From Octopus sinensis (lineage: Eukaryota): 64,000 nucleotides of DNA. The translations under genes and the position numbers were made by a program. The stretch spans positions 63,798,001-63,862,000 of the forward strand of contig NC_043008.1 of assembly GCF_006345805.1 (NCBI RefSeq), read 5' to 3'. The notes beneath the pieces were generated by a model. That model saw only the letters and a list, made by a program, of their open reading frames with translations. It made no database searches and had not been told where the DNA came from. This document shows positions 184-56,417 of this stretch, piece by piece. How positions within the stretch are numbered: the stretch's first letter is position 1; the number at the start of each line of letters is the position of its first letter.

Positions 184-495
184 TAAAGAATAAAATGTTT
201 TGAATGGTACAACAGTGCACTATAATACAAACAATGGATTATATACTTGTTGTAATTTAGTCATCCACAGTCTGATTTTTTTGATATTTCAGAATAAAAT
301 TTCTTCTTCAGATATTCTTAGATGGAGTCACTGCTATAATCAATTATAGGAGTGAATCCATCTAAGAATATCTGAAGAGGGAATTTTATTCTGAAATATG
401 ATATCAGATTATGGATGACTAAATTACAACAGGTATATAGCCCATTGTCTGTATTATAGTGCACTGTTGTACCATTCAAAACATTTTATTCTTTA
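184..495. repeat. ~310-bp fold-back (palindromic) element
   Basis: taaagaataaaatgttttgaatggtacaacagtgcactataataca (from 184) is the reverse complement of the sequence ending at 495; centre ctataat-ca-attatag at 334-349. Confidence 0.92.
368..404 (+). ncRNA. Minimal type-I hammerhead-like motif (mirror copy at 283-315, - strand)
   Basis: atat-CTGAAGA-g-ggaat/ttt/attct-GAAA-TATG-atat; the mirror arm reads GAAATATC, so the two-arm consensus has an AUC cleavage site. This + copy has G at position 17, which is not cleavable. Confidence 0.55.
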
Positions 496-534
496 CAAAC
501 AATACACAATGCTTCAAGCGAACTACAATACTCT

Positions 535-574
<40 letters not shown>

Positions 575-795
575 AGAGAAAACCTCTATTAAACAATTCA
601 ATAGTGAAAGACGTTATTTATACCATATAGAAAAAGTTAAATATACTATCATCATCATCATCATCATCATTCTAAAAATCAATAGAGTACATAAACAATA
701 AATAGTAAATAGACTATGCACTTTTCATGGCTATATTTTCAATTAGATAATAATAATAAAATCAATTTGATTAAAACTAAATTAGTCTAAAATTA

Positions 796-935
796 TTGTT
801 ATATTTCGGAATGGTCATTTTGCCAGTTTAGCCAATAAAAACACACGCACTATATATTTGGTGTTACTTTGCTTCAGTGTTATTTATTTTTTACATTAAT
901 CTTAATCTTATTTCGAGTTCTTTCATCACACTCCT
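796..935. mobile_element. 140-bp insertion with 11-bp target-site duplication
   Basis: gtctaaaatta at 785-795 and 936-946; segment absent from the mirror arm; start resembles 35748-35794. Confidence 0.8.
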
Positions 936-1004
936 GTCTAAAATTAATTCTATTTAAAATTATAGTCACTCATCAGGTCTATAACAATAATAATAATAAT
1001 AATA

Positions 1005-1745
1005 ATGCCGATTCTGTAACGATGAGGTTGAAACAATAGATCACCTAATCTCAGGGTGTAGAGTCTTAGCACCTGCAGAATTTAAAGCAAGACGTGACAG
1101 AGTCGACCAGTATTTACATTGGACAATATGTCGGCATTATAAAATCAAAACCACTGACAAATGGTATAAACATCATCCTGAAGCTGTGACTGAGGGAGAA
1201 AATGTGTCGATTCTATGGGACTTCCCCGTACAGACCGACAGGACTATAAAAGCTAATAAACTGGATATTATTATAAAAGATCAGACAAAAAGGACGTGTT
1301 TATTAATTGACATGAGTATTCCCTGTGATCACAATATGGCAGCAAAAGAATTTGACAAGATTAGTAAATATAAAGACCTGCTAATAGAAACTGAAAAAAT
1401 GTGGTATCTCAAGGTGACTACAGTACCAGTGATTGTAGGATCTCTAAGAATGATAAAAAAATGGTACTGAAACCTATTTGAAAATGATTTCAGGCTTACC
1501 ATCCCTACAGGAAATGCAAAAAGTCGTATTAACTGGAACGGCTCATGTACTGAGAAGAGCACTATGGCTGTGAAAATAACATCCATCCATGAATTTATTT
1601 AGTTATTAATTTTTAAATACATATTTCATCTTTGAATTTGCGCGTGTAATCTGGAAATGCATACAATGCCCTTCTCTGCCCTAGGTGTATGGAAAACACT
1701 CGGCGAGAAACGGAAGAAAATTTGAAGAAAGAAGGAAAAAACATG
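1005..1745 (+). mobile_element. 5'-truncated R4/Dong-like non-LTR retrotransposon (CCHC knuckle, RLE endonuclease, 3' UTR)
   Basis: CRFCNDEVETIDHLISGC, then ORF 1186-1470 LWDFPVQTDRTIKANKLDIII...LIDMSIP...KYKDL; inserted in (AAT)n. Confidence 0.88.
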
Positions 1746-1788
<43 letters not shown>

Positions 1789-1809
1789 TAATAATAATAG
1801 TAATAATAA

Positions 1810-1840
<31 letters not shown>

Positions 1841-2993
1841 AATAAAAACAATATATGTATAATATAATAAATGTACATATCTTAACTTATAAATTAACTA
1901 ATAAATATAGAAAAATACAGGTTTTAACAATAAATAAAAGAAAAAATTTAATAGTATTACTTAAAAAAACAGATCTTATCGAAGAAATTCTGTTTACTAA
2001 AATTTTAAATGTAATATATATAACTTAGCGTTTATAAGAAATTTATCGCGTGAAAACATGGTGTAAGTAAAAATTATAGAATAAATAGATAGATAGAAAT
2101 ATGCATTTAAGCTGTTAAAAAGACAGAATATATTATTTAGCTGTGAGAATAAGAAAAAAACTAACTGTAATATATTATTTACTGGAAAATTTTAAAGTCT
2201 ATATAATTTCCAAGTAAAATACGTAAAATATATAATATATATAAATTAACCTGAATTTCTATAATTTAATCTATTTACATTAATTAATTAATTTTTTTAT
2301 TTTCTAAACATCTAAGTTTAATCGTATTCTAATTATGTAATACACCTGTTCTAATATACACTATATTATGTGTTTAGCTAATTTGTGTATATATATAAAC
2401 CTTATTTTATGTTAATAATTGTTGTAGTTATAATTTGTAGTAGTATAATGTGTATGAATTAGCAAGAGATTATATAGTGTATATTACATAATTAGAATAA
2501 GATTAAATTTAGATGTTTATAATATAAATAAATAAATAAATGAAAGTAGATTAAATTATCGAAATTTAGCTTAATTTATGTATATTATGTATTTTACATA
2601 TTTTACTTTGAAATTATTTAGACTTTAAAATTTTCCAGTAAATAGTATATTACTGTTAGTTTTTTTCTTATTCTCACTGCTAAAAAATATATTTTGTCTT
2701 TCTGACAGCTTAAAAACATATTTCTATCTATCTATTTATTCTATAATTTTTACTTACACCATGTTTTCACGTGATAAATTTCTTATAAATGATAAATTTT
2801 TTATCAACGCTAAGTTCTAGATATTACGTTTAAAATTTTAGCTAACAGAATTTCTTCGATAAGATAAATTATGGTTTTATTTTAAGTAATACTGATAAAT
2901 TTTTTTCTATTATTTATTGTTAAAACACGTATTTTTCTATATTTATTAGTTAATTTATAAGTTTAGATACGTACATTTATTATATTTATATTG

Positions 2994-3065
<72 letters not shown>

Positions 3066-3079
3066 TATTATTATTATTA

Positions 3080-3119
<40 letters not shown>

Positions 3120-3154
3120 TTATTATTATTATTATCATCGTGATTATTATTATT

Positions 3155-3276
3155 ATAGACCTGATGAGTTACTATATTTTTAAATAAAATTAATTTTAGA
3201 TCGATTTAGTTTTAATCAAATTGATTTTGTTATTATTATCTATTTGAAAATATTGCCAGAAACGTGAATAGTCTAT
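3155..3276 (+). ncRNA. Hammerhead-like motif with long stem II (mirror copy 709-982, - strand, interrupted)
   Basis: atagac-CTGATGA-[actatatttttaaata...tatttgaaaatattgc hairpin]-GAAA-cgtgaa-TA-gtctat; stem I atagac/gtctat is perfect; stem III is mismatched in both arms. Confidence 0.65.
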
Positions 3277-3531
3277 TTACTATTTATTATTTAGGTATTC
3301 TAATGATTTTTAGATTAATGTTTTCTATAGTATATTTAACTGTTTCTATATGGTGTGAATAACGTCTTTCACTATTGAATTATTTAATAGAGGTTTTTCT
3401 CTAAATTTTATGCATATATTATATATTGCAAAATTTGATTTAGAATTGCTACATTGAAATTTTCGCTGTAAGTTTGGAATTATATTCCCTACTATTATTA
3501 TTATTATTTTTATTATTATTATTATTATTAT

Positions 3532-4086
3532 TGAGTGAGAGAGCAGTACATGCCATCAAAGTGACACTGGGGTAAAATATACGAAGCCCAGTATACCCAT
3601 CATGACTACCCGTCTGATAAGGGTACACCAGGCACATGCATCACAACCATATGTGCGCGACATGGTGATCTCATAACAAGATAAATAGCACATGACCTTG
3701 CGGGTGGGGCCCAGTTAGAATTTTCTTCTGGTAGGGTAACCCATCCCGCTCAAAAGGTCCCTGATTAAGGGTTGTTTAAGGATGTTGAATGAAACACCCA
3801 TGTTTCCAGAGGTGAATTATTCAAACCCCAAAGAATCCCTCTCAACACATGGCTATGATGCTCCCCCACTACTTCCGCTCATGATCAGAGATGCACATAT
3901 CGTCAGCCAATAAGGGACATGCTCAGCTGGTGAAGGTCAAACAACTGACAAGCAAATCTGTGGTATTGAGCAGAATATTTGTTGTAGCCCATCTTTTCTA
4001 CCAAGACAAAACAATGTACATGATAACACATCCAGTCAGTTAAGATCAGAAGCCATGAGAGCCACTGCTTGGTACTGCATCAGGGC

Positions 4087-4090
<4 letters not shown>
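3532..4090. mobile_element. Unclassified GC-richer insertion within (ATT)n
   Basis: Sharp compositional block bounded on both sides by (ATT)n; no second copy in the window. Confidence 0.5.
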
Positions 4091-4122
<32 letters not shown>

Positions 4123-4134
4123 ATCAGCATGTGG

Positions 4135-4455
4135 TGTAGGTGCATGGCTCAGCAGTTATAGCATTAGGTTCTCAATCATGAGTTTGTGAGTTTGATTCCT
4201 GGTTCAGACTTTGTGTTGTGTTCTTGAGCAAGACACTTTATTTCACGTTGCTCTTGTTCACTCAACCATAAAAATGTGTTGTGATGTCACTGGCAACAAG
4301 TTGTGTTGGCGTTTGCATTTTCTCTTTTCTCATCGGTAGCTTGGATAGAAGAGGTGGGGATGCTGGTCTTCAATAAACAATTTTGCCTTAACTTGTGCCT
4401 CAGAGGGGAATTTTCTTGGTGCAATCTCATTCATGACCAGAAGGGGGTCTTTCCT
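4135..4455 (+). mobile_element. tRNA-derived SINE (family C), degenerate
   Basis: Head ggtgcatggctcagcagttatagc...gagtttgattcc; tail tcattcatgaccagaagggggtctt matches the reversed copies at 16472 and 50440. Confidence 0.75.
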
Positions 4456-4489
4456 TTTTATATATAAGCATGTATGTACTGTACACATT

Positions 4490-4722
4490 GCCAACCCTCA
4501 CCTTACTGACAGTATCTCTGTACATGGCTTGTACAACCCTCACTTACCATTCATCTATTCCTAGTTTCCTCATCAACCACTAGATAAGGGAGCGGAGGAC
4601 CCTGTCGAAGGCTTTCTCCATGTCAACAAAAGCTAGGTACAGAGGTTTATCTTTGGCTATGTATTTCTCCTGCAGCTGTCTTACCAGAAATATAGCATCA
4701 GTGGTGCTTTTCCCTGGCACAA
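4490..4722 (-). pseudogene. Reverse transcriptase fragment of RTE-like LINE
   Basis: PGKSTTDAIFLVRQLQEKYIAKDKPLYLAFVDMEKAFDRV; homologous to 54170-54385. Confidence 0.88.
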
Positions 4723-5011
4723 TGAAGGCATTAAAATAGAAACACATTTCATCATCATCATCAGCATCATCATCATTTAACATCTGTCCTTCATTTAACA
4801 TTATCATCTAATATCATTCATCATTATTTAACTTCAGATTTAACATCTGTCCTCCATGCTCTCATGAACTGGATGGGTTAACAGGAACTGACAAGCTAGA
4901 GAGCTGCACCAGGCTCTATTGACTGCTTTTGACATGGTTTCTATGGCTGGATGTCCTTCCTAATGCCAAAATACAGCTAAAAGCTCATGATAAACTGTTT
5001 GAAATTTGTAG

Positions 5012-5131
5012 ATCCCACCCACCCTCCTCCACTACTCAGAGATGAACTCAAATTTCTTCCTCAGTCAAATAGCAGAGAAGCTGCAAAATGATCAAAAGTT
5101 CATGCACTTTGATCTTCCATCCTCTGAGCAG
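5012..5131 (+). CDS. Candidate internal coding exon (120 nt, phase 0/0), gene not identified
   Basis: tttgtag|ATC...CAG|gtaaaa; open frame IPPTLLHYSEMNSNFFLSQIAEKLQNDQKFMHFDLPSSEQ; non-repetitive sequence. Confidence 0.5.
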
Positions 5132-6684: not shown

Positions 6685-6715
<31 letters not shown>

Positions 6716-11992: not shown

Positions 11993-11993
11993 A

Positions 11994-12280
11994 CATATTC
12001 TGTTGAGTCTGGGGAGAGTAATTTTCTTTTTGTGCCTTATAATGTAACACACTCACCGGTAAAATTTCCACTTATTTCTTATTTTTATGTTCCTAAAATT
12101 TTCGTTGAGTCTTGCAACCTTTTCAATAGTTTTGAGAGTCAAAACTATTGAAAAGGTTGCAAGATGCAACGAAAATTGTAGGAAAATAAAAATAAGAAAT
12201 AAGTGGAAATTTTACCGGTGAGTGTGTTACATTATAAGGCACAAAAAGAAAATGACTCTCCCCAGACACAACAGAATATG
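11994..12280. repeat. 287-bp near-perfect palindrome
   Basis: catattctgttg...ttttga-gag-tcaaaa...caacagaatatg; centre at 12137; mirrored ORFs in the track. Confidence 0.95.
12145..12181 (+). ncRNA. Hammerhead-like motif with U3:A8 core variant
   Basis: cta-TTGAAAA-g-gttgc/aagat/gcaac-GAAA-att(g; t in mirror arm)-tag; stem I is only 3 bp, close to the palindrome centre. Confidence 0.45.
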
Positions 12281-13200
12281 CTTCAACACACGAACTCATA
12301 TAAAGAATCTTGCAAGCCAAATCCCAAAACGAAATACATGACATAATATTACTAAAAAAATGACAGCTTGAAATAAATGATTACTACACAAAGGAAACAT
12401 CAGAAAATGGCTTGTATAGCAGAAATTAAAATGATTGGACATTATAAGATGGTTTTGCAAAGCAGAATGCGATGGAAACATTTATTATTCTGTATTAGCT
12501 GTAATAATCAGGACTAGATGTGATTGAAGACATGCAATATGTTTTAAAAAATGGATATTTGTTTCAAATCTCTTCATTCTAGTTTCACATTTATAGCTGA
12601 CAGTACCTGTTTCCGTATTTATCTAGAAGTGAGGTCAATAATAAATATACCAATTATATATTGACAGTGAATCATTCAAGTGGCTGCCCTTCTCTTGAGA
12701 CATTTTGTCAGAGAATATCAAAATGCTGGTGTGTCTTATAAAACAGTAAAAGTAGAAAGATCAAAATGCCCGAGACAGTAAGGTAATGTGAAAGGAAGTT
12801 TTCCTCATATATGGGATAAATGCATCATTTTTCTGGTAAAAAGTCAAACCTGACATAATCTGATTGCAAAATATTTTTGAGGTCACTGTTCACGAAATGA
12901 ATGCAGATTAAGTAATGTTAACATGAGTACATAAGGTGATGCAGGAATGAAGAGTGGCACCATCTGCATAGTAGTGGGTGCTTTTGGAGGGTGATGCCAA
13001 GTAAGTCTCTTTTATATGTTGGGGAAAGAGTGCCCAGGACAAAACTAAATCAAGAATACACCAGGAGTTGATAAACTTTGGATGAGAGAAGACACTAACA
13101 ATTCATGGATTCGAACTCTGAATATATAAAGCCAGAAGAAATACCACAAGGCATTTTTTCAACACTTTAACAACTCTGCTAATCCACTGCCTTACTACTA

Positions 13201-13282
<82 letters not shown>

Positions 13283-13309
13283 GAAAAAAAAAATAATAAT
13301 AATAATAAC

Positions 13310-13835
13310 AGAAAAAAAGATGGTATAGGCACACACCAGAAAAGGTCACAGAAAACGAGAAAGCAACCATACTCTGGGATATGCCGATACACACAGATAG
13401 AGAAATTAAGGCCAACAGACCAGATATAGTTGTCAGAGATCATGAAGAAAAAAAATGCTTTCTAATTGATGTATCAATACCGGCAGATGACAACGTGTCT
13501 CTAAAAGAAATGGAGAAACTCTCAAAATACAAAGACCTGGAAATAGAGGTAACTAGAATGTGGAACCGGAAAACAGAAACAATTCCTATCATAGTAGGTG
13601 CATTAGGCATGATAAAAAAATATTCAGACAAATACATAACAAAAACACCAGGACTTACAAACACATATAACATACAGAAAATTGCACTACTAGGCACTGC
13701 ACACATCCTACGCAGAACACTTTCCATACAATAACCATCAGAGCATCACAACAAATCACAGCACATACCCAAGGCACACAGAGCTGCGCTCGGTAGTGAA
13801 GTGAAAGCACGCTATAAAAATAAAACTACTGAATA
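13310..13835 (+). mobile_element. R4/Dong-like LINE 3' fragment (RLE domain)
   Basis: ORF 13381-13734 DREIKANRPDIVVRD...LIDVSIP..NVSLKEMEKLSKYKDL; ends aaaactactg-(aat)n. Confidence 0.92.
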
Positions 13836-13866
13836 ATAATAATAATAATAACAATAATAATAATAA

Positions 13867-14137
13867 TGTGAACTCTAAAAACAGAAACAATTCCTATCAT
13901 AGTAGGCGCATTAGATATGATAAAAAAAATATTCAGACAAATACATAACAAAAACACCTTGACTTACAAATATATATAACATGCAGAATATTGCACTACT
14001 TGGCACTGCACACATCCTATGCAAAACACTTTCGATACAGTAAGCATAAGAGCATCAAACCAAACCACAGCACATACCAAAGGCACACAGAGCTGCACTC
14101 GGTAGTGAAATGAAAGCACGTTATAAAAATAAAACTA

Positions 14138-14140
<3 letters not shown>
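13867..14140 (+). mobile_element. Second, shorter R4/Dong-like 3' fragment in tandem
   Basis: Near copy of 13559-13835 lying between (AAT)n tracts. Confidence 0.9.
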
Positions 14141-14176
<36 letters not shown>

Positions 14177-14603
14177 CCTTTCTAGTAAAGGAACAAGCCT
14201 GAAATTTAGTGGGAGAGGACTAGTCAATTACATCGACCCCAGTGTTTCACTGGTACTTAATTTGTCAACCCCAAAAGGATGAAAGGCAAAGTCGACCTCA
14301 GTGGAATTTGAACTCAGAATGTAGCAATGGGTGAAATACTGCTAAGCATTTCATCCAGAGTGTTAACGTCTCTGTCATCTTGCTGCCTTAATAATCCTTT
14401 CTACTGTAGGCACAAGTCCTGAAATTTTGGTGGAGGGGGCCAGTTGATTAGATTGACTCCAGTAGACAACTGGTACCTAGTTTATCAACCCAGAAAGACA
14501 AATCAACCTCTGCAGAATTCAAACTCAGAACATAAAGACAGACAAAATACCACTAAGTGTTTCATCCAGCATGCTAACAATTCTGCCAGCTTGCTGCCTG
14601 CCT
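14177..14603 (-). mobile_element. Two tandem SINEs (family D): 14177-14388 and 14396-14603
   Basis: gaaaggcaaagtcgacctcagtggaatttgaactcagaa core shared with 16093, 19417 and 36620. Confidence 0.8.
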
Positions 14604-14604
14604 T

Positions 14605-16820: not shown

Positions 16821-17480
16821 AACTATTAAAACATAGAAAAACATTCACAATAAAGCACAGCTCAAGTAACACACAGACACAGTTGTATCACCCAAAGAAC
16901 AATGCTACATGCACTTCAAGAAAATGCAGGTGCAGAAGAAACTAACATGAAAGTGTTGAAAAAAATAATCATAGTAATTTTTCCTTTATTGTCCACAAGG
17001 ACTTGGTGAGATACAGAAAAGTTCAAAGAAATAATAACTAGCTATTTTACAAAGAAAATATGTGGAGTGAGGTGGATAAGATCTTCAAACACTAGAAGAT
17101 GAGTAAAAGACATTATACAATATATAAATAGAAGAACTGAAATTTTAAAACACAAACATCTTCACAGAAATAAAAAATATATATAAACAATAAACCATTG
17201 TAATTGAAGCAAGTTATAGTTAAAAGTAAATGAAACATTAAAAAAAAAATGGCTAGGTCGTGTTAGAGCACCCCTTATCTTTACATATCTACCTTTCTGT
17301 TTTTGTCTTGTGCACCCAAAAGCACCCATTAACATTTCTGCGAATTGTTTGAAATAATACCAAAATCTTCAGAGTAGAACTGTCTCAGTTCTTTATAATA
17401 CCTTTTAGATTTAACTACCAACCTATTTTTACCTTGTTTCTCAATCATTTTTCCTCTATGAACTCTTTTGATTCCCACTT

Positions 17481-17656
17481 TACTCATGTCAACTCCCGTC
17501 ATTTGATATTTAAAAGAATCCTATTAATCATGTCAACTCTCGTCATTTGATATTTAAAAGAATCCTATTAATCATGTCAACTCTCGTCATTTGATATTTA
17601 AAAGAATCCTATTACTCATGTTAACTCCCGTCATTTGATATTTGAAAGAATCCTAT
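17481..17656. repeat. 44-bp minisatellite, 4 copies
   Basis: tactcatgtcaactcccgtcatttgatatttaaaagaatcctat starting at 17481, 17525, 17569 and 17613. Confidence 0.95.
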
Positions 17657-17688
17657 CATACTTTTATAATTAGAAACCAGCACGGAAT

Positions 17689-17739
17689 TTTGTCAGTGAA
17701 CAGGTCATGGTCTCAAAGTGACGGAAATATTTTGACAAA
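17689..17739 (+). ncRNA. Hammerhead-like motif with G3:C8 core variant
   Basis: tttgtca-GTGAACA-g-gtcat/ggtctcaaa/gtgac-GGAA-atat-TT-tgacaaa; perfect 7-bp stem I, 5-bp stem II, palindromic AATATT stem III; A13 appears mutated to G. Confidence 0.55.
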
Positions 17740-17872
17740 TTAAATTTAAATGTTGAAGTGAATCTAACGGATTTTGCGTATTTCTTAAATGGCTTATAAA
17801 CACCTTCCACACTGCAATTGTTTTCGTTCCAGCACACAATCTCAGATCAGGTCATTTGCTATGCAAGTACAT

Positions 17873-18350
17873 CATCATCCTCATCCTCGTTTAATGTCCG
17901 CTTTCCATGCTAGCATGGGCTGGACGATTTGACTGAGGATTGGAGAAGCAGATGGCTGCGCCAGGCTCCAATCTGATCTGGCATAGTTTTTTTATGGCTG
18001 GATGCCCTTCCTAACGCCAACCACTCTGAGAGTGTAGTGGATGCTTTTAATGTGCCACCAGCACGAGGGCCAGTCTAGCAGTACTGGCAATGGCCATGCT
18101 CGAAACTGGTGTTTTTTATGTGCCACCTGCACAGGAGTCAGTCCAGCAGCACTGGCAACAACCTCGCTTGCATGTTTTGTTCATGTGCCACCAGCACAAG
18201 TGCCAGTGAGGCGACACTGACAATGATCATGCTCAAATGGTGCTCTTTACATGCCAGACAGCTGCTCTGGCAGTGATCCCATTTGGATGGAGCTGTTAGC
18301 GCTTCACTGGCATGGGTGCCAGTCATCGAATTTGGTTCAATTTCGATTTC
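17873..18350 (-). mobile_element. RTE 3'-UTR-derived repeat
   Basis: cgtttaatgtccgctttccatgctagcatgg... as at 10490 and 52680. Confidence 0.88.
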
Positions 18351-23267: not shown

Positions 23268-23271
<4 letters not shown>

Positions 23272-23470
23272 TAGAAAAGAAAACCACCTTTTATCAATTC
23301 CCCAATGAAAGACTTAAATTATACCATATAGAAAAAAAATACATCCCATAGAAAATATTAAATATAAAATAAAAACATATAACAATGATTAAGTAATGTG
23401 CAAAATGATAAATAAAATGTATATATTTGGTAAAATGACTACACATGTTTCGTGGCTATATTTAAGAAAT
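23268..23470 (-). mobile_element. Truncated relative of the 570-3407 element carrying the 3' half of its hammerhead
   Basis: aaattagaaaagaaaaccacc...gaaagacttaaattataccatatagaaaa resembles 570-640; minus strand tatagccac-GAAA-catgtg-TA-gtc at 23437-23460. Confidence 0.65.
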
Positions 23471-23507
23471 GATAACAGTAATAACAGTAGAGAATAATAT
23501 TCCCTAA

Positions 23508-23562
<55 letters not shown>

Positions 23563-23605: not shown

Positions 23606-24033
23606 TATGTTTGACTTTTGCTTTATATTTGTACAAGTTGGCTCCAAGTCTCACCCGAAGACCTCAAGAGACAACAGGTTGGAAGTTCATGTTGTTGTTA
23701 TGCCTAGTGTGCCATATATTTGGTGGTTTTTGTGCTGTACTGGTGGATGTCGGAAAAAAAAAAAAAGTTTGTTTTAAACCTTGAGATTACATAGAAAGTA
23801 TTTGGCGTAGGATATGAGCAGTTCCCATGAGCACTATCTTGTGAATTTTTGCCATTTTGGGGTTTCCTGGTATCTGAGTTAGGTAGCAATCAGCCCCTTT
23901 TGCTATCATTCCCAGGGCACCTATGACAACAGGTATTGTTTTAGTCTTCAGGTTCCACATTTTGCTGATTTCTATTTCAAGATCTTTATATTTGCTCAGT
24001 TTTTGGTAGGTCTTGACAGATACGTTTATATCG
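23606..24033 (-). mobile_element. R4/Dong-like LINE 3' fragment (second subfamily)
   Basis: Minus strand KTYQKLSKYKDLEIEISKMWNLKTKTIPVVIGALGMI; flanked by (ATT)n; reverse of 36857-37280. Confidence 0.88.
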
Positions 24034-24824: not shown

Positions 24825-25033
24825 ATATATAATATATATATATATTATATAAAAGGGCTTAGTAAAATAAATTACTTTGCCGCATACTGAACTCATTAGA
24901 AATAGCAGCTAAAAAAACTTTTTTAAAACTATTTCTAATACTTAAAGAAAACCTCTCTCATGTAGTGTTTGCTCAACTCAACTCACGAAAATATGGGGGT
25001 AGAGACATTAAAAAATCAAGTGCAAAGGTTATT

Positions 25034-25086
25034 TGAGAACGTACGTTTCAAGATTAGTCAAACTCGACATTTCTATCATCAGCTCA
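25034..25086 (-). ncRNA. Mirror copy of the type-I hammerhead motif
   Basis: Exact reverse complement of 25630-25682. Confidence 0.75.
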
Positions 25087-25629
25087 GAACTCCCTGGTTT
25101 GGATTTGAAAACACTGAAAGTGGGAGCATACCCTTTCGGCTTCCTATCGCTTCTGAAGATCTGCTCGTAACTAACAGTGCCAACAAACTCAAAAATGCAA
25201 GCGAAGAATTTCTGCTCTCCCCTTTCCACCAGCGTGGGTTAAAATCAGCAAACACTATGCTTTTTTCGGTAAAATCCAAGGCATTATATAGAGAGAGATG
25301 AATTATAATTTCAACAATTGAGGGTAAAATTAATTAATTAATCAATTTCACCAAGTATTCAGTATGCACCAGTATTAATTAATTAATTTTACCCTCAATT
25401 GTTGAAATTATAATTCATCTCTCTATATATAATGCCTTGGATTTTACCGAAAAAAGCATAGTGTTTGCTGATTTTAACCCACGCTGGTGGAAAGGGGAGA
25501 GCAGAAATTCTTCGCTTGCATTTTTGAGTTTGTTGGCACTGTTAGTTACGAGCAGATCTTCAGAAGCGATAGGAAGCCGAAAGGGTATGCTCCCACTTTC
25601 AGTGTTTTCAAATCCAAACCAGGGAGTTC

Positions 25630-25682
25630 TGAGCTGATGATAGAAATGTCGAGTTTGACTAATCTTGAAACGTACGTTCTCA
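25630..25682 (+). ncRNA. Type-I hammerhead ribozyme motif, intact core
   Basis: tgag-CTGATGA-tagaaatgtcgagtttgactaatctt-GAAA-cgtacg-TT-ctca; stem I tgag/ctca; palindromic ACGTACGT stem III; GUU site. Confidence 0.75.
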
Positions 25683-25964
25683 AATAACCTTTGCACTTGA
25701 TTTTTTAATGTCTCTACCCCCATATTTTCGTGAGTTGAGTTGAGCAAACACTATATGAGAGAGGTTTTCTTTAAGTATTAGAAATAGTTTTAAAAAAGTT
25801 TTTTTAGCTGCTATTTCTAATGAGTTCAGTATGCGGCAAAGTAATTTATTTTACTAAGCCCTTTTATATAATGTAATAATTTGAATTCGCCTTAAATGGT
25901 CCCTTGCATACTGAATACTTGGTGAAATTGATTAATAATTAATTTTACCCTCAATTGTTGAAAT

Positions 25965-26012
<48 letters not shown>

Positions 26013-27839: not shown

Positions 27840-28410
27840 TTCATTTAATTGTTTCAGTCATTTGACTGTAGCCATGCTGGAGCACTACCTTAAATGATTT
27901 TAGTCGAAGAAATTGTCACCAGGACTTACTGTTTGTAAGCCTAGTACTTATTCTGTCAGTCTATTTTATGGGGATGTAAACATACCAACATCAGTTTTCA
28001 AGCAGTGATGGGGGACAAACACAGGCACAAAGTTATGTGCACATAAATAATATATATATATATATAAAGTTAATCCAAACATGAAAACACAAAGGGAAAA
28101 CAGAACAACACGAGGACGTGGAACAAATATAATATTATTGGATGCTCAGGAAGGAAGGAAAGAAGGAGGGTTTAACGTTTCGAGTGGAGCTCTTCATCAG
28201 AAACATAGAAAAAGGAAAGATATGTATGTATATATATATATATATACGATGGGCTTCCTTCAGTTTCCATCTATCAAATCACTCACAAGGCTTTGGTTGG
28301 CCTGAGGCTATTGTATGACAGAAAACACTTTCCCAAGGTGCTGTGCAGGAGGACTGAGCCCAAACCCATGTGATTGGGAAGCAAGCTTCTTATCAAACAG
28401 CCATGCCTGC
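27840..28410 (-). mobile_element. SINE family A with an insertion in its internal (TA)n
   Basis: Homologous to 26025-26438, with an extra block at 28066-28220. Confidence 0.85.
28170..28204 (-). ncRNA. Minimal type-I hammerhead motif, intact core
   Basis: Minus strand gttt-CTGATGA-a-gag/ctcca/ctc-GAAA-CG-TT-aaac; stem I gttt/aaac; palindromic ACGT stem III. Confidence 0.72.
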
Positions 28411-36856: not shown

Positions 36857-37278
36857 AAGACCTACCAGAAACTGAGCAAATATAAAGATCTGGAAATTGA
36901 AATCAGCAAAATGTGGAACCTGAAGACTAAAACAATACCTGTTGTCATAGGTGCCCTGGGAATGATAGCAAAAGGGGCTGATTGCTACCTAGCTCAGATA
37001 CCAGGAAGCCCCAAAATGGCAGAAATTCAAAAGATAGTGCTCATGGGAACTGCTCATATCCTACGCAAAATACTTTCTTTGTAATCTCAAGTTTTAAAAC
37101 AAACATAATTTTTGTATGGTTTTTTAGGCATTCACTAGTACAACACTAAGTGCAAAACCAAATATATGGCACCCTAGGCATAACACCAGCATGAACTTCC
37201 AACTTGTTGTCTCTTGAGGTCTCTAGGTGAGACTTGGAGCCAGCTTGTGCAAATGTAAAGCAAAAGTCAAACATAGAA

Positions 37279-37548: not shown

Positions 37549-37552
37549 CATT

Positions 37553-38520
37553 CATCATCATCATCATCATCATCATTTAACGTCCGCTTTCCATGCTAGC
37601 ATGGGTTGGACGGTTCAACTGGGGTCTGGGGAGCCCGAAAGCTGCACCAGTCCAGTCAGATCTGGCAGTGTTTCTACAGCTGGATGCCCTTCCTAACGCC
37701 AACCACTCCGAGAGTGTAGTGGGTGATTTTATGTGCCACCGACACAGGTGCCAGACGAGGCTGACAAACGGCCACGCTCGGATGGTGTTTTTATGTGCTA
37801 CCGACACAGGTGCCAGACGAGGCTGGCAGACGGCCACGCTCGGATGGTGTTTTTATGTGCCACCGACACAGGTGCCAGACGAGGCTGGCAGACGGCCACG
37901 CTCGGATGGTGTTTTTATGTGCCACCGACACAGGTGCCAGACGAGGCTGGCAGACGGCCACGCTCGGATGGTGTTTTTATGTGCCACCGACACAGTGCCA
38001 GATGAGGCTGGCAAACGGCCACGATCGGATGGTGCTTGTTACGTGCCCACAGCACGGAGGCCAGTCGATGCGGTACTGGCCACGGCCACGTTCGGATGGT
38101 TTTCTTATATGCCACGTGCCACCGGCACTGGTACCACAAGGATACAAATTCCATTGATGTTCATCTATTTTGATTTGTTTTGATTTGATTTGATTTGATT
38201 TTCACTTGCCTCAACAGGTCTTCACAAGTGTCACAAGAAGGAAGGTATGCACAGGTGGACTGACTACGTCCCAGGTAGGGGCCATGGGTTATGGCCTGAC
38301 TAGTCTTGCCGGGTCTTCGGATGGTGTTTTTATGTGCCACCGACACAGGTGCTAGATGAGGCTGGCGAACGGCCACGATCGGATGGTGTTTGTCATGTGC
38401 CCACCGCACTGACTACGGCACTGATGGATTTCTGTGTGCCACAGGCACTGGTACCACAAGATACAAATTCCATTGATGTTCATCTATTTTGTCTATTTTG
38501 ATTTGATTGATTTGATTTGA
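37553..38520 (-). mobile_element. RTE 3'-UTR repeat with internal 62-bp tandem array and a partial duplication
   Basis: gacaca unit starts at 37741, 37803, 37865, 37927 and 37989; 38320-38520 is a second partial copy. Confidence 0.9.
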
Positions 38521-41574: not shown

Positions 41575-41880
41575 ATCCATCATGATGTTATCCCATTCCT
41601 CTTGTTTAGCATCTGTATGTCTGGTTTGACTATGAGGTATTTTTCTGTTGAGCATAAAGGACAGATTCTTGAACAAATTTATGTATGATGACACAGTCAT
41701 TCAATCCCAGTTTTACATTTGCAGCAATATTGATTTCTTTAAACTCCCAAATGTATTTAGACTGAGATGTTGCATGCCTTTGGAGTAGTTTCTGGAACAT
41801 GTGCATTTGCATTGTGTATCTGCCTTCCATTCCAAGGTTCAACATGTGTTGCCAGTATAGTGTTTTTTGACTTATCTATC
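41575..41880 (-). pseudogene. Penelope-like element GIY-YIG endonuclease relic
   Basis: KHYTGNT...RYTMQMHMF...HATSQSKYIWEFK...CPLCSTEKYLI...LNKRN, with frameshifts and stops; matches the PLE GIY-YIG C-terminal pattern. Confidence 0.8.
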
Positions 41881-46128: not shown

Positions 46129-46204
46129 ACAGGTTAATGTTGGCAACAGAAAGAGCATCTGGCTGTCGAAAAATGTAACTCAATAAGATTTCATCTGGAC
46201 ACAA

Positions 46205-50778: not shown

Positions 50779-52542
50779 TGTACCAGTTTTGTCATGATTT
50801 CTATGGCTGGACAGCTTTCATAATGTTGGTCCTTTTATAGAGTGGGTGCCTTTCTTTTCATGGGTCTTAGCTTAAAGAGCTTGTGTTGTAATTTGGAAGA
50901 CTAAAGAGACCTGTTTAATTGAATGGAAGGACAGGAGGTAGAGAGGTTGTTTTAAGCAAGCTGTTGAGAGACTAAAGAAGGAAAGGCAGGGTTGGAGCAG
51001 GTTTACTTTTGTGGAGGAGATACATGAATACCTTGCATTTTAGATGGGTGAGTAGGGAATGCTTTACTACTGCTCAAAACAGAGATATATGTGGTGGTGA
51101 TAAAGTGCCAGCATCTATTATACTGTTGATTTCATAATAAAATGTCACATCACACCAGCTCCATCAAACAACCTCAGTCATAGATACAAGACCAGAGCAT
51201 GGCATATTTATTGCATTAGAAGTTGTGCAACGACTTCAAGTGCTTGATTTACTACATTGTTTTCTTTCTGTAGGGTTTTATCAAACATGACTGTCAGGGA
51301 TCAGTTAATAACAACATATAAAACATTAAAATTGCTCATTCATTTTTTTCTTCTTTTATCTAAATTTTTGTTCAATCTTAGGGGAAATGGATTTAATGAT
51401 AAAGGAATAGATAAAAAGAATCCGAACATTTAAGTAGTTGTAAGTAATTTTACATAATTGTTTAAAATAGAAGAAAGTCTTTTTGTTATTTAGTTACTTT
51501 TTTAAAATTTTTAAATGTTCAATGAAACATCAGCATGCTTTCTGTTTAAAACTCAATTTCTTTATCTTTCTAATATTGTGTAAAGTAATGTTGATTTCCT
51601 TTTGATATAAAATTTACAAATGTTTCCATGAGCTTCTGTTTCCTCCCTCTCTCATTTTCTGAGATTATTTTCTTCCCGTATTTCGTGACTTTTTCTCTCT
51701 CATCTCCATTTTAGCATAAACTATTTCCACTTTGCTTAGTGAAATAACAAATTTCATTTTTAAAATTTTAAATATTTTTTTTTTTTATTATATTAGTTAG
51801 TTTGTGTTCTGAATTTTAGAATGCATTAAATTTGTAGTAAAATCTAAGGCTTTATTTGTTGAGAAAAATAAAGGGACTACAAATGATTTTAAGCATCGGT
51901 AAAAATTGTTTTACTATTTTGTTTTATGTCATTGAACAACTACTTAAACACTTCATTTTTCTATAAAAGATGGCAAATTTAGAATGTCATTATTGTAAAT
52001 ACTAATCATATATGAAGTCAAAATCTTAGGTAACTTAATAATAGCTACAAGATACAGAAACTTAACCCTGACAATAAGATATGCAAATTCACATACTTAA
52101 AAATTGGCTTGCACCATCATCAACATCATCGCCATCAATTTCATAATCTTCATTATCATTTTCATAATAATCATCATCATTGTTGCAATAATTATCATCA
52201 TTGTCTCATCATCCTTGTCGCCATAGTCATCAGTATCATCATCATCTCCATCATCATCAACATCATCAACATCAACATTGTCATCAGTATTATTATCATC
52301 ATTGATGTTATTACTGCCATCATTATCACCGCAACGATGGTGATCACCATCATCATCATTGTCATCACTTTTCCATGCTAGCATGGGTCAGATAGACATC
52401 AATCAAATGGGTTTTCTATGGCCAGACATTATGCTTTCACAAAAAATCCAGATATGAACCTCACCGCATGTGTCATGATATTTCTCAGTTACAACTACCA
52501 CAGGATATCAAAAGAAGGAGACACAAACACACACACACACAC

Positions 52543-52594
<52 letters not shown>

Positions 52595-52666
52595 ATATAT
52601 ATATGTACATATATATATGTACATATATATATGTACATATATATATATATATTATATATATATATT

Positions 52667-54835
52667 CATCATCATCCTCATCATCATCGTTTAACGTCCA
52701 TTTTCCGCGCTAGCACAGGTTGGACGGTTCGACCGTGGTCTGGGAAGCCAGGAGGCTGCACCAGGCTCCAGTCTGATCTGGCAGTGTTTCTACAGCTGGA
52801 TGCCCTTCCTAACGCCAGCCACTCCGCGAGTGTAGTGGGTGCTTTTTACGCGCCACCAGCACAGAAGCCAGTCGAGGCGGTGCTGATCTCAGCCACGTTT
52901 GGATGGTGTTTTTTATGTGCCACTGGCACAGGTATCACAACTACTATTTCCATTGATATTTATTTCGATGTTCATGTACCTGACTCAATAGGTCTCTTCA
53001 AGCACAGCGGGTTGTTCTGAAATCCAAGGTACTTTCGAATGGGCAGGGGCTATGCAGAACTGGTGCAGGAAGCAGCCCGGGTCTTTGCAGTCACAGCATA
53101 TCTCCAGAGGTTTCGGTCCTTCGTCATTGCCTCTGTGAAACCCAATGCTCTGAGGTCATGCTTGACTACCTCATCCCATGTCTTCCTGGGTCTACCTCTC
53201 CCTCTGATACCTTCAACTGATTGGGAGCGGCACTTCTTCACACATCTCTCCTCATCCATCCACAGTACATGGCCATACCATCGCAAGCGTCGCTCTTGCA
53301 TACCACATCTGATGCTTCTTATGTCCAGCATTTCTCTCAGAGTGCTTACACTCTGTCGTGCACGCACACTGACATTACACATCCAGTGGATCATGTTAGC
53401 TTCATTTCTTTCAAGTCTATGCATGTCCTCTGCAATCACAGCCCATGTTTCACTACCATGAAGCATAGCAGTTCACACACATGCATCATACAATCTACCT
53501 TTCACTCTGAGCGAGAGACTCTTTGTCGCCAGTAGGGGTAGGAGCTTTCTAAACTTTGCCCAGGCTATTCATATTCTAGTGGTGACACTCTCTGAGCATC
53601 CTCCTCCACTACTAACTTGATCACCCAGGTAGCGGAAACTATCAACTACTTCTAGTTTCTCCCCCTGGAGTGTGATGGAATCTGTTTTCTGAGTATCTGT
53701 GGTGTCTATTGTCCCTGTGCATCTGCCGCACATGAAAGCTATCTTGTCAGTTAATTTCCCTTTGATGTTGCTGCACCTCTTATGCGTCCATAGCTTACAC
53801 TGGGTACATCTTATGGAGTTTCTACCTACACCTTTCCTACTGATCAAGCATGGCCACCTGCCCGAGGGGGTGTGGGCTGAGTTCGCCTTTCTGCTTACTA
53901 TAACTTTGGTCTTTGCTACATTTACTCTAAGGCCCTTTGATTCTAACCCTTGCTTCCACACCTGAAATTTCTTTTCTAGTTCTGGTAGTGATTCTGCTAT
54001 GAGAGCCAGGTCATCAGCATAGAGGAGCTCCCAGGGGCACTCTGTTTTGAATTCCTCTGTTATTGCCTGGAGGACTATGATGAATAAAAGGGGACTGAGG
54101 GCTGAACCTTGGTTTACACCTACTTCTACCCGGAATTCTTCACTATATTCGTTGCCAATCCTAACCTTGCTGACAGCCTCTCTGTATAGGCCCTGTACAG
54201 CCCTTATTAGCCATTCGTCAATCTCCAGTTTCCGCATCGACCACCAGATAAGGGATCAGGGGACCCTGTCAAAGGCTTTCTCCAAGTCCACAAAAGCTAT
54301 GTAGAGGGGTTTATCTTTAGCTAGGTACTTCTCCTGCAGTTGTCGGACCAGGAATATAGCATCAGTGGTGCTTCTACCCAGCACAAAACCGAACTGCATC
54401 TCATCTAATGAGATGGGTTATGACCCTCTCTGTGATCTTCATCACCTGATCCAACAGTTTAATACCCCTGTAGTTATTTCTATCTAGAGCATCACCTTTA
54501 CCCTTGTAGCAGTTGACTATGGTGCTGCTACGCCAGTCATTGGGTATGACTCCATTATTAACTACCTGGTTTACAATGCGGGTGACTAGGCCATAGCCCA
54601 CACAACCAGCTGTCTTAAGCATCTCAGCAGTGATTCCTGATGGGCCGGGGGCTTTACCTGGTTTCATACCCTTAATTGCCTTAACTACAAGGGAGCTCTC
54701 TATTCGGATAGCTGGTCCCTCTACTGGGTCAACATTTGGCAGGCTCTCCTCCTCTCATTCATTCTCCACATTCAGCAGTCTTTCATAATGGCTTCTCCAA
54801 GCCTCTTTCTTTTCACCATCATTAAAAGCAAGCCA
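52667..54835 (-). mobile_element. 5'-truncated RTE-like LINE: RT, Cys-rich (PHD-like) insert, C-terminus, 3' UTR and (GAT)n tail
   Basis: ORFs 54401-54667 (GKAPGPSGI..NYRGIKLL), 53569-54237 (QGSALSP, LYADDL, CTQCKLWTHKRC) and 53050-53466 (HGSETW..RLRWYGH..GRPRKTW); disrupted. Confidence 0.95.
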
Positions 54836-54865
54836 TCATTATATATATATATATATAAATATATA

Positions 54866-54922
<57 letters not shown>

Positions 54923-55129
54923 ATATTATATATATATATATAAATATATATAAATATATATATATATCTTTATATATATAGTAAAAAATGCTTGCGTATT
55001 ATATAGGCAGCAGTATGAAGTACTCAAGTAGAGAACCCAAGACACAAGATATAGATAATATTTACAAGGAGAATTCAAGTAGGTTCAACAATTTATATAA
55101 ACATATATTCAGCCATGAACCAATGTTTA

Positions 55130-55800
55130 TCAGTTATTAAAATATATTAATGTAACAGTCATTAAAATATAAACACATTTTTAGAATTTATGAATACATA
55201 AAAATATAAAAATATAATATATGGGTAGAAAAATTAAATTGAGGTATAAAAATGTTGATGCTTAAGGTTATATATAAACATCTTGAACTACTATCATATT
55301 AATAGATTAAAAGCATTGTTAAAAATATTGAAGAATATGAATACAAATCCTTACGAAAAAGTGAATGTATAAAGTTTTAAGCATGAAAGTTGGGGTTTCC
55401 AAAAAAACTGATGTAGGTAATCCAGTTTAAATAAATAGGTAGAGGTGTTCCACCGGCCATTTCAGGGGCCCAGTAATCCATAGATTTGAGGGTATTCCAA
55501 TCCAAATATTAGATACTGCCTCCTTCATCAGGGAGAATACACTATTTAGGATTCACATTTCATACAGTGTTGCAGTTAGCAGATGAGTCTTGGTTTTAAA
55601 GGGAGGTACACATGTTAACAGGAAGAGAAAGTGTTATAGCAGGAATTGTGGGAAGTGGAATTTAGAAAATATTGCAGAATGTCCTCAACTCACTTATGAA
55701 AAACGACTTCCAGGCCAGATTCCAAAAGTGGCAGGAACACTGGAACTGGTGTATTGCTGTGAAAGGTTACTATTTTGAAGGAGATGATGTCAAAATTTAA
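55130..55800 (-). pseudogene. Highly decayed Penelope-like (GIY-YIG) relic
   Basis: Minus strand IYGLLG / PLKWPVEHL resembles YIGxTxRPLxxRxxEH; follows (TA)n. Confidence 0.35.
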
Positions 55801-55829
55801 GTAAATAAGCTATTTTTCATTAAACATAA

Positions 55830-56262
55830 TTACACTATTTACATTATTTACATTTGATGGATATTTGTCCTCATCTTGTTTATTGTTAACACAACGTTTT
55901 GACTGATATACCCTCCAGCCTTCATCAGGTGTCTTGGGAAAAGTTTGAACTTGGGTTCTCATTCCTAAGGTATTTTTCGATATTATCATTATTATTATTG
56001 TTGTTGTTGTTGTTGTTGTTGTTGTTATTATTATTATCATCATCAACATTATTATTATTATTATTAATATTATTACTATTCAGGTCACTGCCTAGAATCG
56101 AACTCGGAATCTTGGGGTTAGTAGCCCACACTCTTAACCACTACGCCATATGCCTTTGGGCATATCAGCCGAAACATTGTGTTAACAACAAACAAGATGA
56201 GGACAAATATCCGTCAACTGTAAATAATGTACATAATTCCTCATCTCTTAAATATAAAACTG
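55830..56262 (-). mobile_element. tRNA-headed element carrying a hammerhead motif, with an inverted partial terminal copy
   Basis: Head 56081-56154 (A box TGGCGTAGTGG, B box GAGTTCGATTC), then (AAT/AAC)n, then the hammerhead at 55888-55933; 56162-56231 is an inverted copy of 55840-55910; taaacataa flanks at 55821 and 56263. Confidence 0.78.
55888..55933 (-). ncRNA. Minimal type-I hammerhead motif
   Basis: gacac-CTGATGA-a-ggctgga..tcagtc-AAAA-CG-TT-gtgtt; the inverted copy at 56165 retains cagcc-GAAA, so the consensus core is intact. Confidence 0.65.
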
Positions 56263-56360
56263 TAAACATAACTAATTCAAAAACATTTTGACACCACTTT
56301 TGTATAATGGTTTCTATTTAAGATTTCAAGACTCTTACTTAGAGTTTGGAAGAAACTAAT

Positions 56361-56417
56361 CAACAGCTCTGATGATGTCATTTTGAAACTCCAGATCTTT
56401 GGAGTCATACATTGTTT
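56361..56417 (+). ncRNA. Possible hammerhead relic
   Basis: CTGATGA-tgtcatttt-GAAA-ctcca/gatctt/tggag-TC; good stem III and GUC site, but stems I and II are poor. Confidence 0.35.

What the first reader, a model, noticed from the sequence alone, without database searches (positions are those of the whole stretch)
184..56417. Many unrelated non-coding elements, mostly fold-backs, each carry a minimal type-I hammerhead: a Penelope-dependent or retrozyme-like RNA system
Seen: at least seven sequence-unrelated elements (184, 570/23268, 11994, 17662, 24844, 28066, 55830) share the order stem I - NUGANNA - optional extra base - stem II - GAAA - short, mostly palindromic stem III (ATAT, ACATGT, AATT, AATATT, ACGTACGT, ACGT) - UH - stem I'. 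Five are inverted duplications and several sit in (TA)n or (AAT)n. Known: Penelope-like elements and metazoan non-LTR retrozymes carry minimal type-I hammerheads with palindromic stem III that cleave as dimers, and PLEs often have inverted terminal copies. GIY-YIG relics occur here at 41575 and possibly 55130. Inference: an unusually dense, diverse set of non-autonomous ribozyme retroelements, about one per 8-9 kb.
Basis: partly seen in the sequence, partly recalled or inferred. Interest (0 to 1): 0.8.

Follow-up and report, generated by a model that had tools for sequence, protein, structure and literature searches.

The report
Penelope retroelement ends carrying hammerhead ribozymes
The hammerhead-ribozyme motifs are real and come from seven abundant repeat families, at least four of which are the terminal repeats of Penelope-like retroelements, a known arrangement; the less usual parts are one terminal repeat that starts with a tRNA-like head and one young 558-base tandem repeat that is likely copied by the Penelope enzyme.

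Summary
Observation largely confirmed. All seven elements belong to high-copy families (1,235-3,489 first-look candidates each) whose column majorities form a minimal type-I hammerhead with a palindromic helix III. The 3:8 pair covaries across families (C-G in five, U-A, G-C). Most window copies are decayed. The interpretation needs correcting. E1, E2, E3 and E7 are not separate non-autonomous elements but pseudo-LTRs of Penelope-like elements (PLEs): relatives run collinearly into GIY-YIG and/or RT frames. The fold-backs are 5'-to-5' twin insertions whose outer ends fall at two fixed sites (E1 9/11, E3 17/17, E4 9/9, E7 25/26, E5 8/8), the published PLE 'tail' signature. None of 50 internally starting arms begins at the predicted cut, so the copied RNA was likely uncleaved. 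Intact-motif density equals the genome average (1 per 64 kb against 7 per 400 kb). Two parts go beyond the literature I could search. E7's pseudo-LTR begins with a tRNA-like A/B-box head, and most copies start there. E5 is a 99%-identical 558-nt tandem retrozyme whose arrays (up to 15 full units) carry the PLE tail signature. Cleavage and expression are untested.

The parts
184..537 (.). E1 fold-back insertion: pseudo-LTR of a Penelope/Poseidon-like PLE; left arm on -, short 3' end at 184; right arm on +, long (tailed) end at about 537 in (TA)n
368..404 (+). E1 hammerhead, + arm (core 372-378; position 17 mutated to G); second copy with core at 311 on -, helix I' lost
571..3490 (.). E2: read here as one large fold-back of a PLE 3' UTR plus pseudo-LTR (left arm on -, short end at 571; right arm on +, long end at about 3490), interrupted by a non-LTR fragment in its (AAT)n. 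The merge of the two BLAST insertions is my reading of the sequence.
709..982 (-). E2 hammerhead with long helix II (core 976-970), split by a nested repeat at 807-936
3155..3276 (+). E2 hammerhead, + arm (core 3161-3167), small deletions in helix II/III
11994..12335 (.). E3 fold-back: pseudo-LTR of a PLE with a CX4CxxC linker and GIY-YIG; short end at 11994, long end at about 12335
12093..12129 (-). E3 hammerhead, U3:A8 variant, intact (the one descriptor hit in the window); + arm copy at 12145-12181 has G at position 17
17678..17873 (+). E4 solo element, about 200 nt, fixed 5' start about 22 nt before the core; hammerhead at 17689-17739 with a G3:C8 pair and 7-bp helix I (A13 to G in this copy); no coding parent found
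23268..23510 (-). Distant E2-type copy holding only the 3' half of the hammerhead
24841..25967 (.). E5 fold-back of a young 558-nt tandem unit; left arm ends at unit position 200, right arm is longer than one unit and ends at about 292; both ends in (TA)n
25630..25682 (+). E5 hammerhead (core 25634-25640, predicted cut after 25678); mirror copy at 25034-25086 on -
28066..28221 (-). E6 solo element ending in (TA)n; hammerhead at 28170-28204 (core 28200-28194, intact); no coding parent and no two-end tail pattern found
55836..56264 (.). E7 fold-back: pseudo-LTR of a Poseidon-like PLE; left arm on - is tRNA-like head + (AAT)n + hammerhead + short end; right arm on + ends at the long end
56080..56157 (-). 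tRNA-like head of E7 with A-box- and B-box-like motifs
55888..55933 (-). E7 hammerhead (core 55928-55922; G12 to A in this copy)
41575..41875 (-). Degraded GIY-YIG-like relic, weak support
   Evidence: E 0.003; no GIY-YIG in Pfam

Best explanation
The seven elements are hammerhead-carrying repeat families, four of them shown to be terminal repeats (pseudo-LTRs) of Penelope-like retroelements and the other three likely moved by the same kind of enzyme. Shown: E1, E2, E3 and E7 lie directly downstream of PLE coding frames in other copies. Fold-backs join two 5'-truncated arms head to head, with one short and one tailed 3' end. Many E3, E4 and E7 copies start at one fixed 5' point. E5 forms head-to-tail arrays of one variant each, with the same two-end signature. 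Inferred, by analogy with the purified anole PLE (PMC11167929): the PLE protein cuts both strands of AT-rich DNA and starts reverse transcription from each end at one of two internal sites some 60-160 nt (E5 200-290 nt) past the hammerhead, on RNA that has not been cleaved. Copying stops early or at the transcript's 5' end, which leaves thousands of 150-400-nt solo pseudo-LTRs and fold-backs. For E7 the 5' end is likely set by a polymerase III promoter in the tRNA-like head. E5 is likely a non-autonomous retrozyme copied by a PLE enzyme round a circular RNA or along a multimeric one. The hammerheads are predicted to cleave weakly as dimers through the palindromic helix III; they are conserved in source elements and mostly decay after insertion.
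For: Family majorities carry an intact core and helices, with three different Watson-Crick 3:8 pairs. Compensated helix I variants occur in E1 relatives (L318, L344) and a helix II variant in E2 relatives (L222, L232). E1 segment downstream of a GIY-YIG match on the same strand in 24 of 30 loci, E2 in 20 of 30; E7 head in 28 of 30 and E7 hammerhead in 15 of 30 by a strict pattern. E3: 5 of 30 UTR-anchored loci were translated and all five show the same PLE frame (Pfam GIY-YIG E 8.5e-7). Pfam RVT_1 E 1.4e-10 and GIY-YIG E 1.5e-6 upstream of E1; RVT_1 E 1.6e-9 upstream of E7. One short and one long end in fold-backs: E1 9 of 11, E3 17 of 17, E4 9 of 9, E7 25 of 26, E5 8 of 8 with both ends in view (counted by hand). 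E2: 9 of 12 flagged loci, three of them near-duplicates, the other three matching only the UTR. 0 of 50 internally starting arms begin within 2 nt of the predicted cut. E5 units differ by 6.5 substitutions within arrays and 10.8 between (35 units, 8 arrays). One array has 15 full units plus an inverted arm, ends at 204 and 292, in (TA)n. Literature.
Against: No coding parent was found for E4, E5 or E6 among 440 loci. E6 shows 1 fold-back in 30 and a single 3' end. The tail regions of the seven families are not significantly alike, apart from a weak E3-E4 match (2 of 300 shuffles), so no partner can be named for E4-E6. Pfam finds no RT or GIY-YIG in the E2-linked frames or in the related 748-aa frame; their PLE identity rests on motifs read by eye, weak pairwise matches and Atlas look-alikes with HTH_animal/GIY-YIG. 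Pfam also misses the E7-linked endonuclease (pairwise E 2e-4 to the E1 one). Minimum-energy folds of natural copies give helices I and II for E3 and E4 but only part of the fold for E1, E6 and E7, and the predicted dimers do not isolate the helix III duplex. The cut-site test is biased: the family searches favoured full-length matches.
Confidence: 0.85

Rival explanations
1. All seven are independent non-autonomous ribozyme elements whose RNA is cut by the hammerhead into unit-length circles that are then inserted.
For: Fits E5: tandem units, a longer-than-unit arm in the window, array-private variants, and a circular fold more stable than shuffles (-146.7 against -114.1 +/- 6.8 kcal/mol, 30 shuffles). 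E4 has a fixed 5' start (11 of 17 incidental arms at -19 to -24). Solo E3 copies differ from UTR-linked ones at three columns, which may mark a self-propagating subfamily.
Against: E1, E2, E3 and E7 continue into PLE frames. A second same-strand copy lies within 1.4 kb in only 0-2 of about 30 loci for each family other than E5. No arm starts at the cut. Solo and ORF-linked E7 copies show no diagnostic difference.
Confidence: 0.08
2. E5 arrays are ordinary satellite DNA: a single PLE-type insertion later expanded in place by unequal crossing-over, with no rolling-circle step. This rival concerns E5 only.
For: Array-private variants are also expected from local expansion, and two neighbouring units in L171 share extra variants. 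The preprint read discusses local amplification of pseudo-LTRs.
Against: Both arms of one insertion can hold full units (L170, L176, L178, L180), arrays are 98-100% identical to the unit, and arms longer than one unit occur in single insertions. All of this needs a template that reads through the cut site.
Confidence: 0.25
3. The motifs are chance matches in AT-rich palindromic DNA, and the fold-backs are MITE-like DNA transposons.
For: Only one window copy passes the descriptor; Rfam finds no hammerhead. Lower divergence of the core among copies is not significant once E7 is dropped (14/1050 against 149/6894, p 0.08).
Against: Seven of seven family majorities have the full motif, with 3:8 covariation. 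7 hits against 0-2 in shuffles of 400 kb. Fold-back arms are unequal and vary at the centre, and many copies are single-armed.
Confidence: 0.02

Closest known systems
Minimal type-I hammerheads in pseudo-LTRs of metazoan PLEs (Cervera and de la Pena 2014, PMC4209133; parts 1-2 of 4 read)
   Same: Short helix I, extra nucleotide before 10.1, palindromic helix III, U3-A8 variant, many diverse families per genome, mostly solo copies, some in opposite orientation 100-700 bp apart.
   Different: E4 has a natural G3:C8 pair, which the parts read do not mention. E2 has a helix II of about 21 bp and no extra nucleotide. The parts read do not cover this lineage.
Poseidon PLE of Anolis, internal initiation and 'tail' (Frangieh et al. 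2024, PMC11167929; abstract and main text read); PLE insertion structure (Craig et al. 2021, PMC8557442; passages read)
   Same: Both strands cut and extended in AT-rich DNA, two start sites that define a tail on one end, an inverted 5'-truncated copy, uncleaved RNA as substrate, (TA)n bias. The C3G/G8C double mutant keeps partial activity.
   Different: Tails here are about 35 (E7), 55 (E1, E3, E4), 75 (E2) and 90 nt (E5), against 30-40 bp described.
Non-LTR retrozymes (Cervera and de la Pena 2020, PMC7229834, passages; Li, Clavereau and Pollet, bioRxiv 10.64898/2026.07.22.740005, parts 1-3 of 5 read)
   Same: E5 is a non-coding tandem unit with one type-I hammerhead per unit, 35% GC, 558 nt (within the 51-972 bp range of the preprint), and has a U.U at the base of helix II as in an axolotl motif.
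   Different: The preprint links retrozymes to PLEs by co-occurrence and pseudo-LTR homology in 35 species with no mollusc. Here the link is the PLE insertion signature on the arrays themselves. Circular RNA is not shown.
Schistosoma SINE-like hammerhead repeats (Pol III promoter plus hammerhead; review PMC6765202, passages) and TRIMp3 elements with tRNA/5S sequence in LTRs (Kojima 2024, PMC10886601, passages)
   Same: A small-RNA-derived promoter-like head is joined to a retroelement terminal repeat or a hammerhead.
   Different: E7's head sits in the pseudo-LTR of a coding PLE, about 35 nt after the endonuclease match, not in a non-autonomous tandem repeat or an LTR element.

Membership tests
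Minimal type-I hammerhead (PLE type) | Core N3-UGA-N-N8-A ... GAAA ... UH with a Watson-Crick 3:8 pair | tested here: met
   7 of 7 family majorities; all 11 core letters match the majority in 17-28 of 30 copies for E1, E3, E4, E6, E7
Minimal type-I hammerhead (PLE type) | Helix I closes the motif; helix II present; palindromic short helix III | tested here: met
   E5 helix II is irregular; compensated variants
Minimal type-I hammerhead (PLE type) | Extra nucleotide between 9 and 10.1 and a G10.1-C11.1 pair | tested here: inconclusive
   Both present in E1, E3, E4, E6, E7; E2 has the pair but no extra nucleotide; E5 has U.U
Minimal type-I hammerhead (PLE type) | Self-cleavage, as dimer or protein-assisted | not testable with these tools
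   no assay; predicted dimer folds uninformative
Rfam hammerhead families | Covariance-model match | tested here: not met
   no hammerhead family listed
EN+ Penelope-like element pseudo-LTR | Lies downstream of an RT plus C-terminal GIY-YIG frame (E1, E3, E7) | tested here: met
EN+ Penelope-like element pseudo-LTR | Same, for E2 | tested here: met
   20 of 30 collinear; 69% to a 748-aa frame with PLE-type Atlas look-alikes; Pfam and PDB negative
EN+ Penelope-like element pseudo-LTR | Same, for E4, E5, E6 | tested here: inconclusive
   no ORF-linked copy in 440 loci; the genome was not searched exhaustively
EN+ Penelope-like element pseudo-LTR | Inverted 5'-truncated partner arm with a tail on one end only | tested here: met
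   E1-E5 and E7; not seen for E6 (1 of 30 fold-backs, one 3' end)
EN+ Penelope-like element pseudo-LTR | Clade assignment (Poseidon against Neptune/Nematis) by RT phylogeny | not tested
   labels rest on linker motifs read by eye against the description and on recall
Non-LTR retrozyme (E5) | Non-coding head-to-tail repeats, one type-I hammerhead per unit, GC under 45-50% | tested here: met
   558-nt unit, longest stop-free frame 111 codons, GC 35%
Non-LTR retrozyme (E5) | Expressed as linear and circular unit-length RNA | not testable with these tools
   only assembled contigs of runs not on record as RNA were available
Non-LTR retrozyme (E1-E4, E6, E7) | Head-to-tail arrays | tested here: not met
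   0-2 second direct copies per about 30 loci, irregular spacing
tRNA-derived SINE (E7 solo copies) | tRNA-related head with A and B boxes at the 5' end | tested here: met
   Rfam tRNA 17.2 bits, E 0.2, below gathering; ARAGORN relaxed 5 of 30; 26 of 30 copies start within about 8 nt of the head
tRNA-derived SINE (E7 solo copies) | Independent non-autonomous lineage | tested here: not met
   head present in 28 of 30 endonuclease-linked copies; no diagnostic column between 23 solo and 16 linked copies
tRNA-derived SINE (E7 solo copies) | Polymerase III transcription | not testable with these tools
   no transcript-end data

The most novel reading that the evidence does not exclude
This genome holds a coding Penelope-like element that has built a tRNA-derived polymerase III promoter into its pseudo-LTR and so spawns SINE-like progeny from its own end (E7). 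It also holds a still-young 558-nt retrozyme (E5) that a Penelope reverse transcriptase copies by rolling round a circular RNA from both ends of a DNA break, in up to 15 turns. That would be direct genomic evidence for how animal retrozymes spread.
Probability: 0.4. Interest if true: 0.65.

Novelty: new variant of a known kind. Interest (0 to 1): 0.42.

Why it matters
That PLE ends carry minimal hammerheads, and that animal retrozymes derive from PLEs, is published, so the overall system is not new. Three things are useful. (1) E5 gives a nearly unmutated substrate for an open question, whether retrozymes are inserted by PLE enzymes through a rolling circle: its arrays carry the PLE two-end signature and each array repeats one variant. 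(2) E7 joins a tRNA-like head to a coding PLE. I found no such case in three searches aimed at it; repeat databases were not available and may hold it. (3) E4 is a natural, high-copy G3:C8 hammerhead; the one paper most likely to list such variants (Lunse et al.) was not held. Practically, tens of thousands of short fold-backs in such genomes could be mislabelled as MITEs, SINEs or microRNA hairpins: extrapolation from 400 kb gives about 41,000 insertions of these seven families (15,000-89,000) and about 48,000 descriptor hits before background (19,000-98,000).

Tried and rejected
Rfam scans found no hammerhead; the top window hits are microRNA models matching fold-backs and microsatellites, below gathering scores. 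ARAGORN found no tRNA in the window. A first strict scan found only E6. Sequencing runs: no RNA holder listed. The contigs of three runs guessed to be RNA and one of unknown kind cover the E5 unit (27-30 of 30 bins) but show no starts, ends or strand; this is not used as evidence on expression. Purifying selection among copies: core 14/1350 against downstream 260/8574 differences (p 6e-6), but E7's downstream stretch runs into its variable end; without E7, p 0.08, so inconclusive. Partner assignment by tail similarity: E1-E3, E2-E5 and E5-E7 resemblances seen by eye were not significant (49, 11 and 46 of 300 shuffles). Twenty more stretches, 18 of them around more divergent Poseidon-like endonucleases, gave no parent for E4, E5 or E6. 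The E3 row is an offset error and was dropped; E3 5' ends are taken (26 of 30 start at -6 to -15). The 55130 'GIY-YIG' was not supported. The PDB search with the 748-aa frame was empty. Earlier findings of the scan: none. Paper searches; two used 'octopus', my guess at the lineage from genome size and repeat content, which no call confirms. No supplements were read; those of PMC4209133, PMC8557442 and the preprint list motifs and families and may bear on the novelty of E4 and E7.
Full report
1. The observation. The window lies in a 2.72-Gb animal genome (G000:C12:63798001-63862000) and is 34.6% GC, rich in microsatellites. Each element is a high-copy repeat: first-look candidates E1 1,235, E2 1,288, E3 1,265, E4 2,458, E5 3,165, E6 3,489, E7 3,383 (not copy numbers). 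Over 30 loci each, all seven column majorities show a full minimal type-I hammerhead, with C3:G8 in five, U3:A8 in E3 and G3:C8 in E4, and palindromic helix III in all. Related subfamilies show compensated helix changes. A descriptor finds 1 hit in the window (mean of 20 shuffles 0.05) and 7 in 400 kb of random stretches (shuffles 1, 0, 0, 2; the 7 come from 5 insertions), so the motif is real and the window is of ordinary density by this measure. The seven families themselves have 6 insertions in the 400 kb against 8 BLAST insertions in the window, but they were chosen from this window. Rfam has no matching hammerhead model. The 23268 copy has only half the motif, and 55130 is not a supported GIY-YIG relic.

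2. What the elements are. Following the copies that extend upstream leads into coding sequence. E1: RT and GIY-YIG frames, and the E1 segment follows the endonuclease in 24 of 30 loci. E2: an endonuclease-like frame, followed by the E2 segment in 20 of 30 loci; Pfam does not recognise it, but a related 748-aa frame has PLE-type look-alikes. E3: a microsatellite-rich UTR leads to a frame with a CX4CxxC linker and GIY-YIG in the 5 of 30 loci translated. E7: RT and an endonuclease-like frame end about 35 nt before a tRNA-like head in 28 of 30 loci, and the head is followed by the E7 hammerhead in 28 of 30 head-anchored loci. These four are therefore pseudo-LTRs of coding PLEs. No parent was found for E4, E5 or E6 in 440 loci. 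The seven families are otherwise unrelated in their tail regions.

3. The fold-backs. Both arms point outwards and are joined at their 5' sides. Their outer ends fall at two fixed sites, about 130 and 183 nt from the core in E1, 255 and 330 in E2, 131 and 187 in E3, 127 and 181 in E4, 95 and 130 in E7, and 200 and 292 nt past the cut in E5. One arm is short and one long in 9 of 11 (E1), 17 of 17 (E3), 9 of 9 (E4), 25 of 26 (E7) and 8 of 8 (E5) cases. This is the tail signature described as unique to PLEs and traced to two internal start sites of reverse transcription, with both DNA strands cut and extended (PMC11167929; PMC8557442). E6 is the exception: 1 fold-back in 30 and one 3' end at (TA)n. 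In the window, 571-3490 reads as one such E2 insertion split by later insertions (my reading).

4. The role of the ribozyme. None of 50 arms that start inside an element begins within 2 nt of the predicted cut (about 1-2 expected by chance, and the sample is biased towards full-length partners). Copies instead start upstream of the hammerhead, often at a fixed point: 26 of 30 E3 copies at -6 to -15, 11 of 17 incidental E4 arms at -19 to -24, 26 of 30 E7 heads within about 8 nt. This agrees with the anole result that uncleaved RNA is the substrate. I infer that the fixed points are transcription starts in the pseudo-LTR, as described for Penelope, and that most short copies arise when reverse transcription starts at a tail site and runs to the RNA's 5' end. 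Whether solo copies then propagate themselves is open: E7 solos match ORF-linked copies, while E3 solos differ at three columns. Cleavage itself is untested; folding supports helices I and II only in part.

5. E5. Its copies are 99% identical and form head-to-tail arrays of a 558-nt non-coding unit. One insertion has 15 full units, an inverted arm, ends at 204 and 292, and (TA)n on both sides. Units share array-private variants (6.5 substitutions within, 10.8 between arrays). The window's right arm is longer than one unit. E5 meets the DNA-level definition of a non-LTR retrozyme, and the U.U at its helix II base has a precedent in axolotl. A circular or multimeric template copied by a PLE enzyme is the likely route; later local expansion is the rival. 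RNA data could not decide.

6. Relation to what is known. Minimal palindromic hammerheads in PLE ends, their diversity within a genome, solo and inverted copies and the U3-A8 variant are in PMC4209133 (parts 1-2 of 4 read). The derivation of animal retrozymes from PLEs is argued in a 2026 preprint (parts 1-3 of 5). Pol III-driven hammerhead repeats are known from Schistosoma (review passages) and small-RNA heads from LTR-type TRIMs (passages). Not found in my searches: a tRNA head inside the pseudo-LTR of a coding PLE, and the tail signature on retrozyme arrays. Repeat databases, supplements and Lunse et al. were not seen, so these may be on record. Clade names (Poseidon-like, Neptune/Nematis-like) are by motif and recall, not by a tree.

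7. Verdict. Real, mostly known biology: PLE pseudo-LTR debris with hammerheads at genome-typical density, plus two specific, testable variants (E5 and E7). Interest 0.42.

Noticed in passing
window 807-936: A separate repeat is nested in the helix II loop of the E2 hammerhead. Its relatives (L175, L435) carry a hammerhead-like core of their own, so it is probably an eighth family.
   Followed up: partly
window 1006-1470, 13309-14350, 23609-24014, 36857-37272: Fragments of a non-LTR element flanked by (AAT)n. The 1006-1467 frame has a weak zf-RVT match and resembles a restriction-like endonuclease clade that targets microsatellites (recalled, not tested).
   Followed up: no
window 53569-54255 (-): Reverse transcriptase (RVT_1 E 1.7e-14) followed by a PHD-like finger: a LINE fragment.
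   Followed up: no
window 11994-12137 (-), E3 family: Between hammerhead and tail lies a 48-nt stretch with splice-like ends followed by an ATG. Two of the three columns that separate solo from UTR-linked copies fall at these signals. Possible 5' UTR intron, untested.
   Followed up: partly
L277, L288, L295, L299, L327, L350, L241, L242, L252, L255: Further hammerhead families with 6-8-nt palindromic helix III. L350 has two copies 351 nt apart (another possible retrozyme); L241 and L255 lie next to long PLE-like frames.
   Followed up: no
G000 loci listed: A young PLE-like family with many identically scoring copies and open frames up to 748 aa; 14,165 first-look candidates for this endonuclease type.
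   Followed up: partly
window 17480-17656 and 37722-38047: Tandem repeats of 44 bp x 4 (directly upstream of E4) and 62 bp x 5.3.
   Followed up: no
window 63778-63873 (-): Weak match to U6 snRNA (21.8 bits, E 0.51); possible pseudogene or chance.
   Followed up: no
window 55050-55380: AT-rich repeat with a 69%-identical relative in L173/L174; no protein match.
   Followed up: partly
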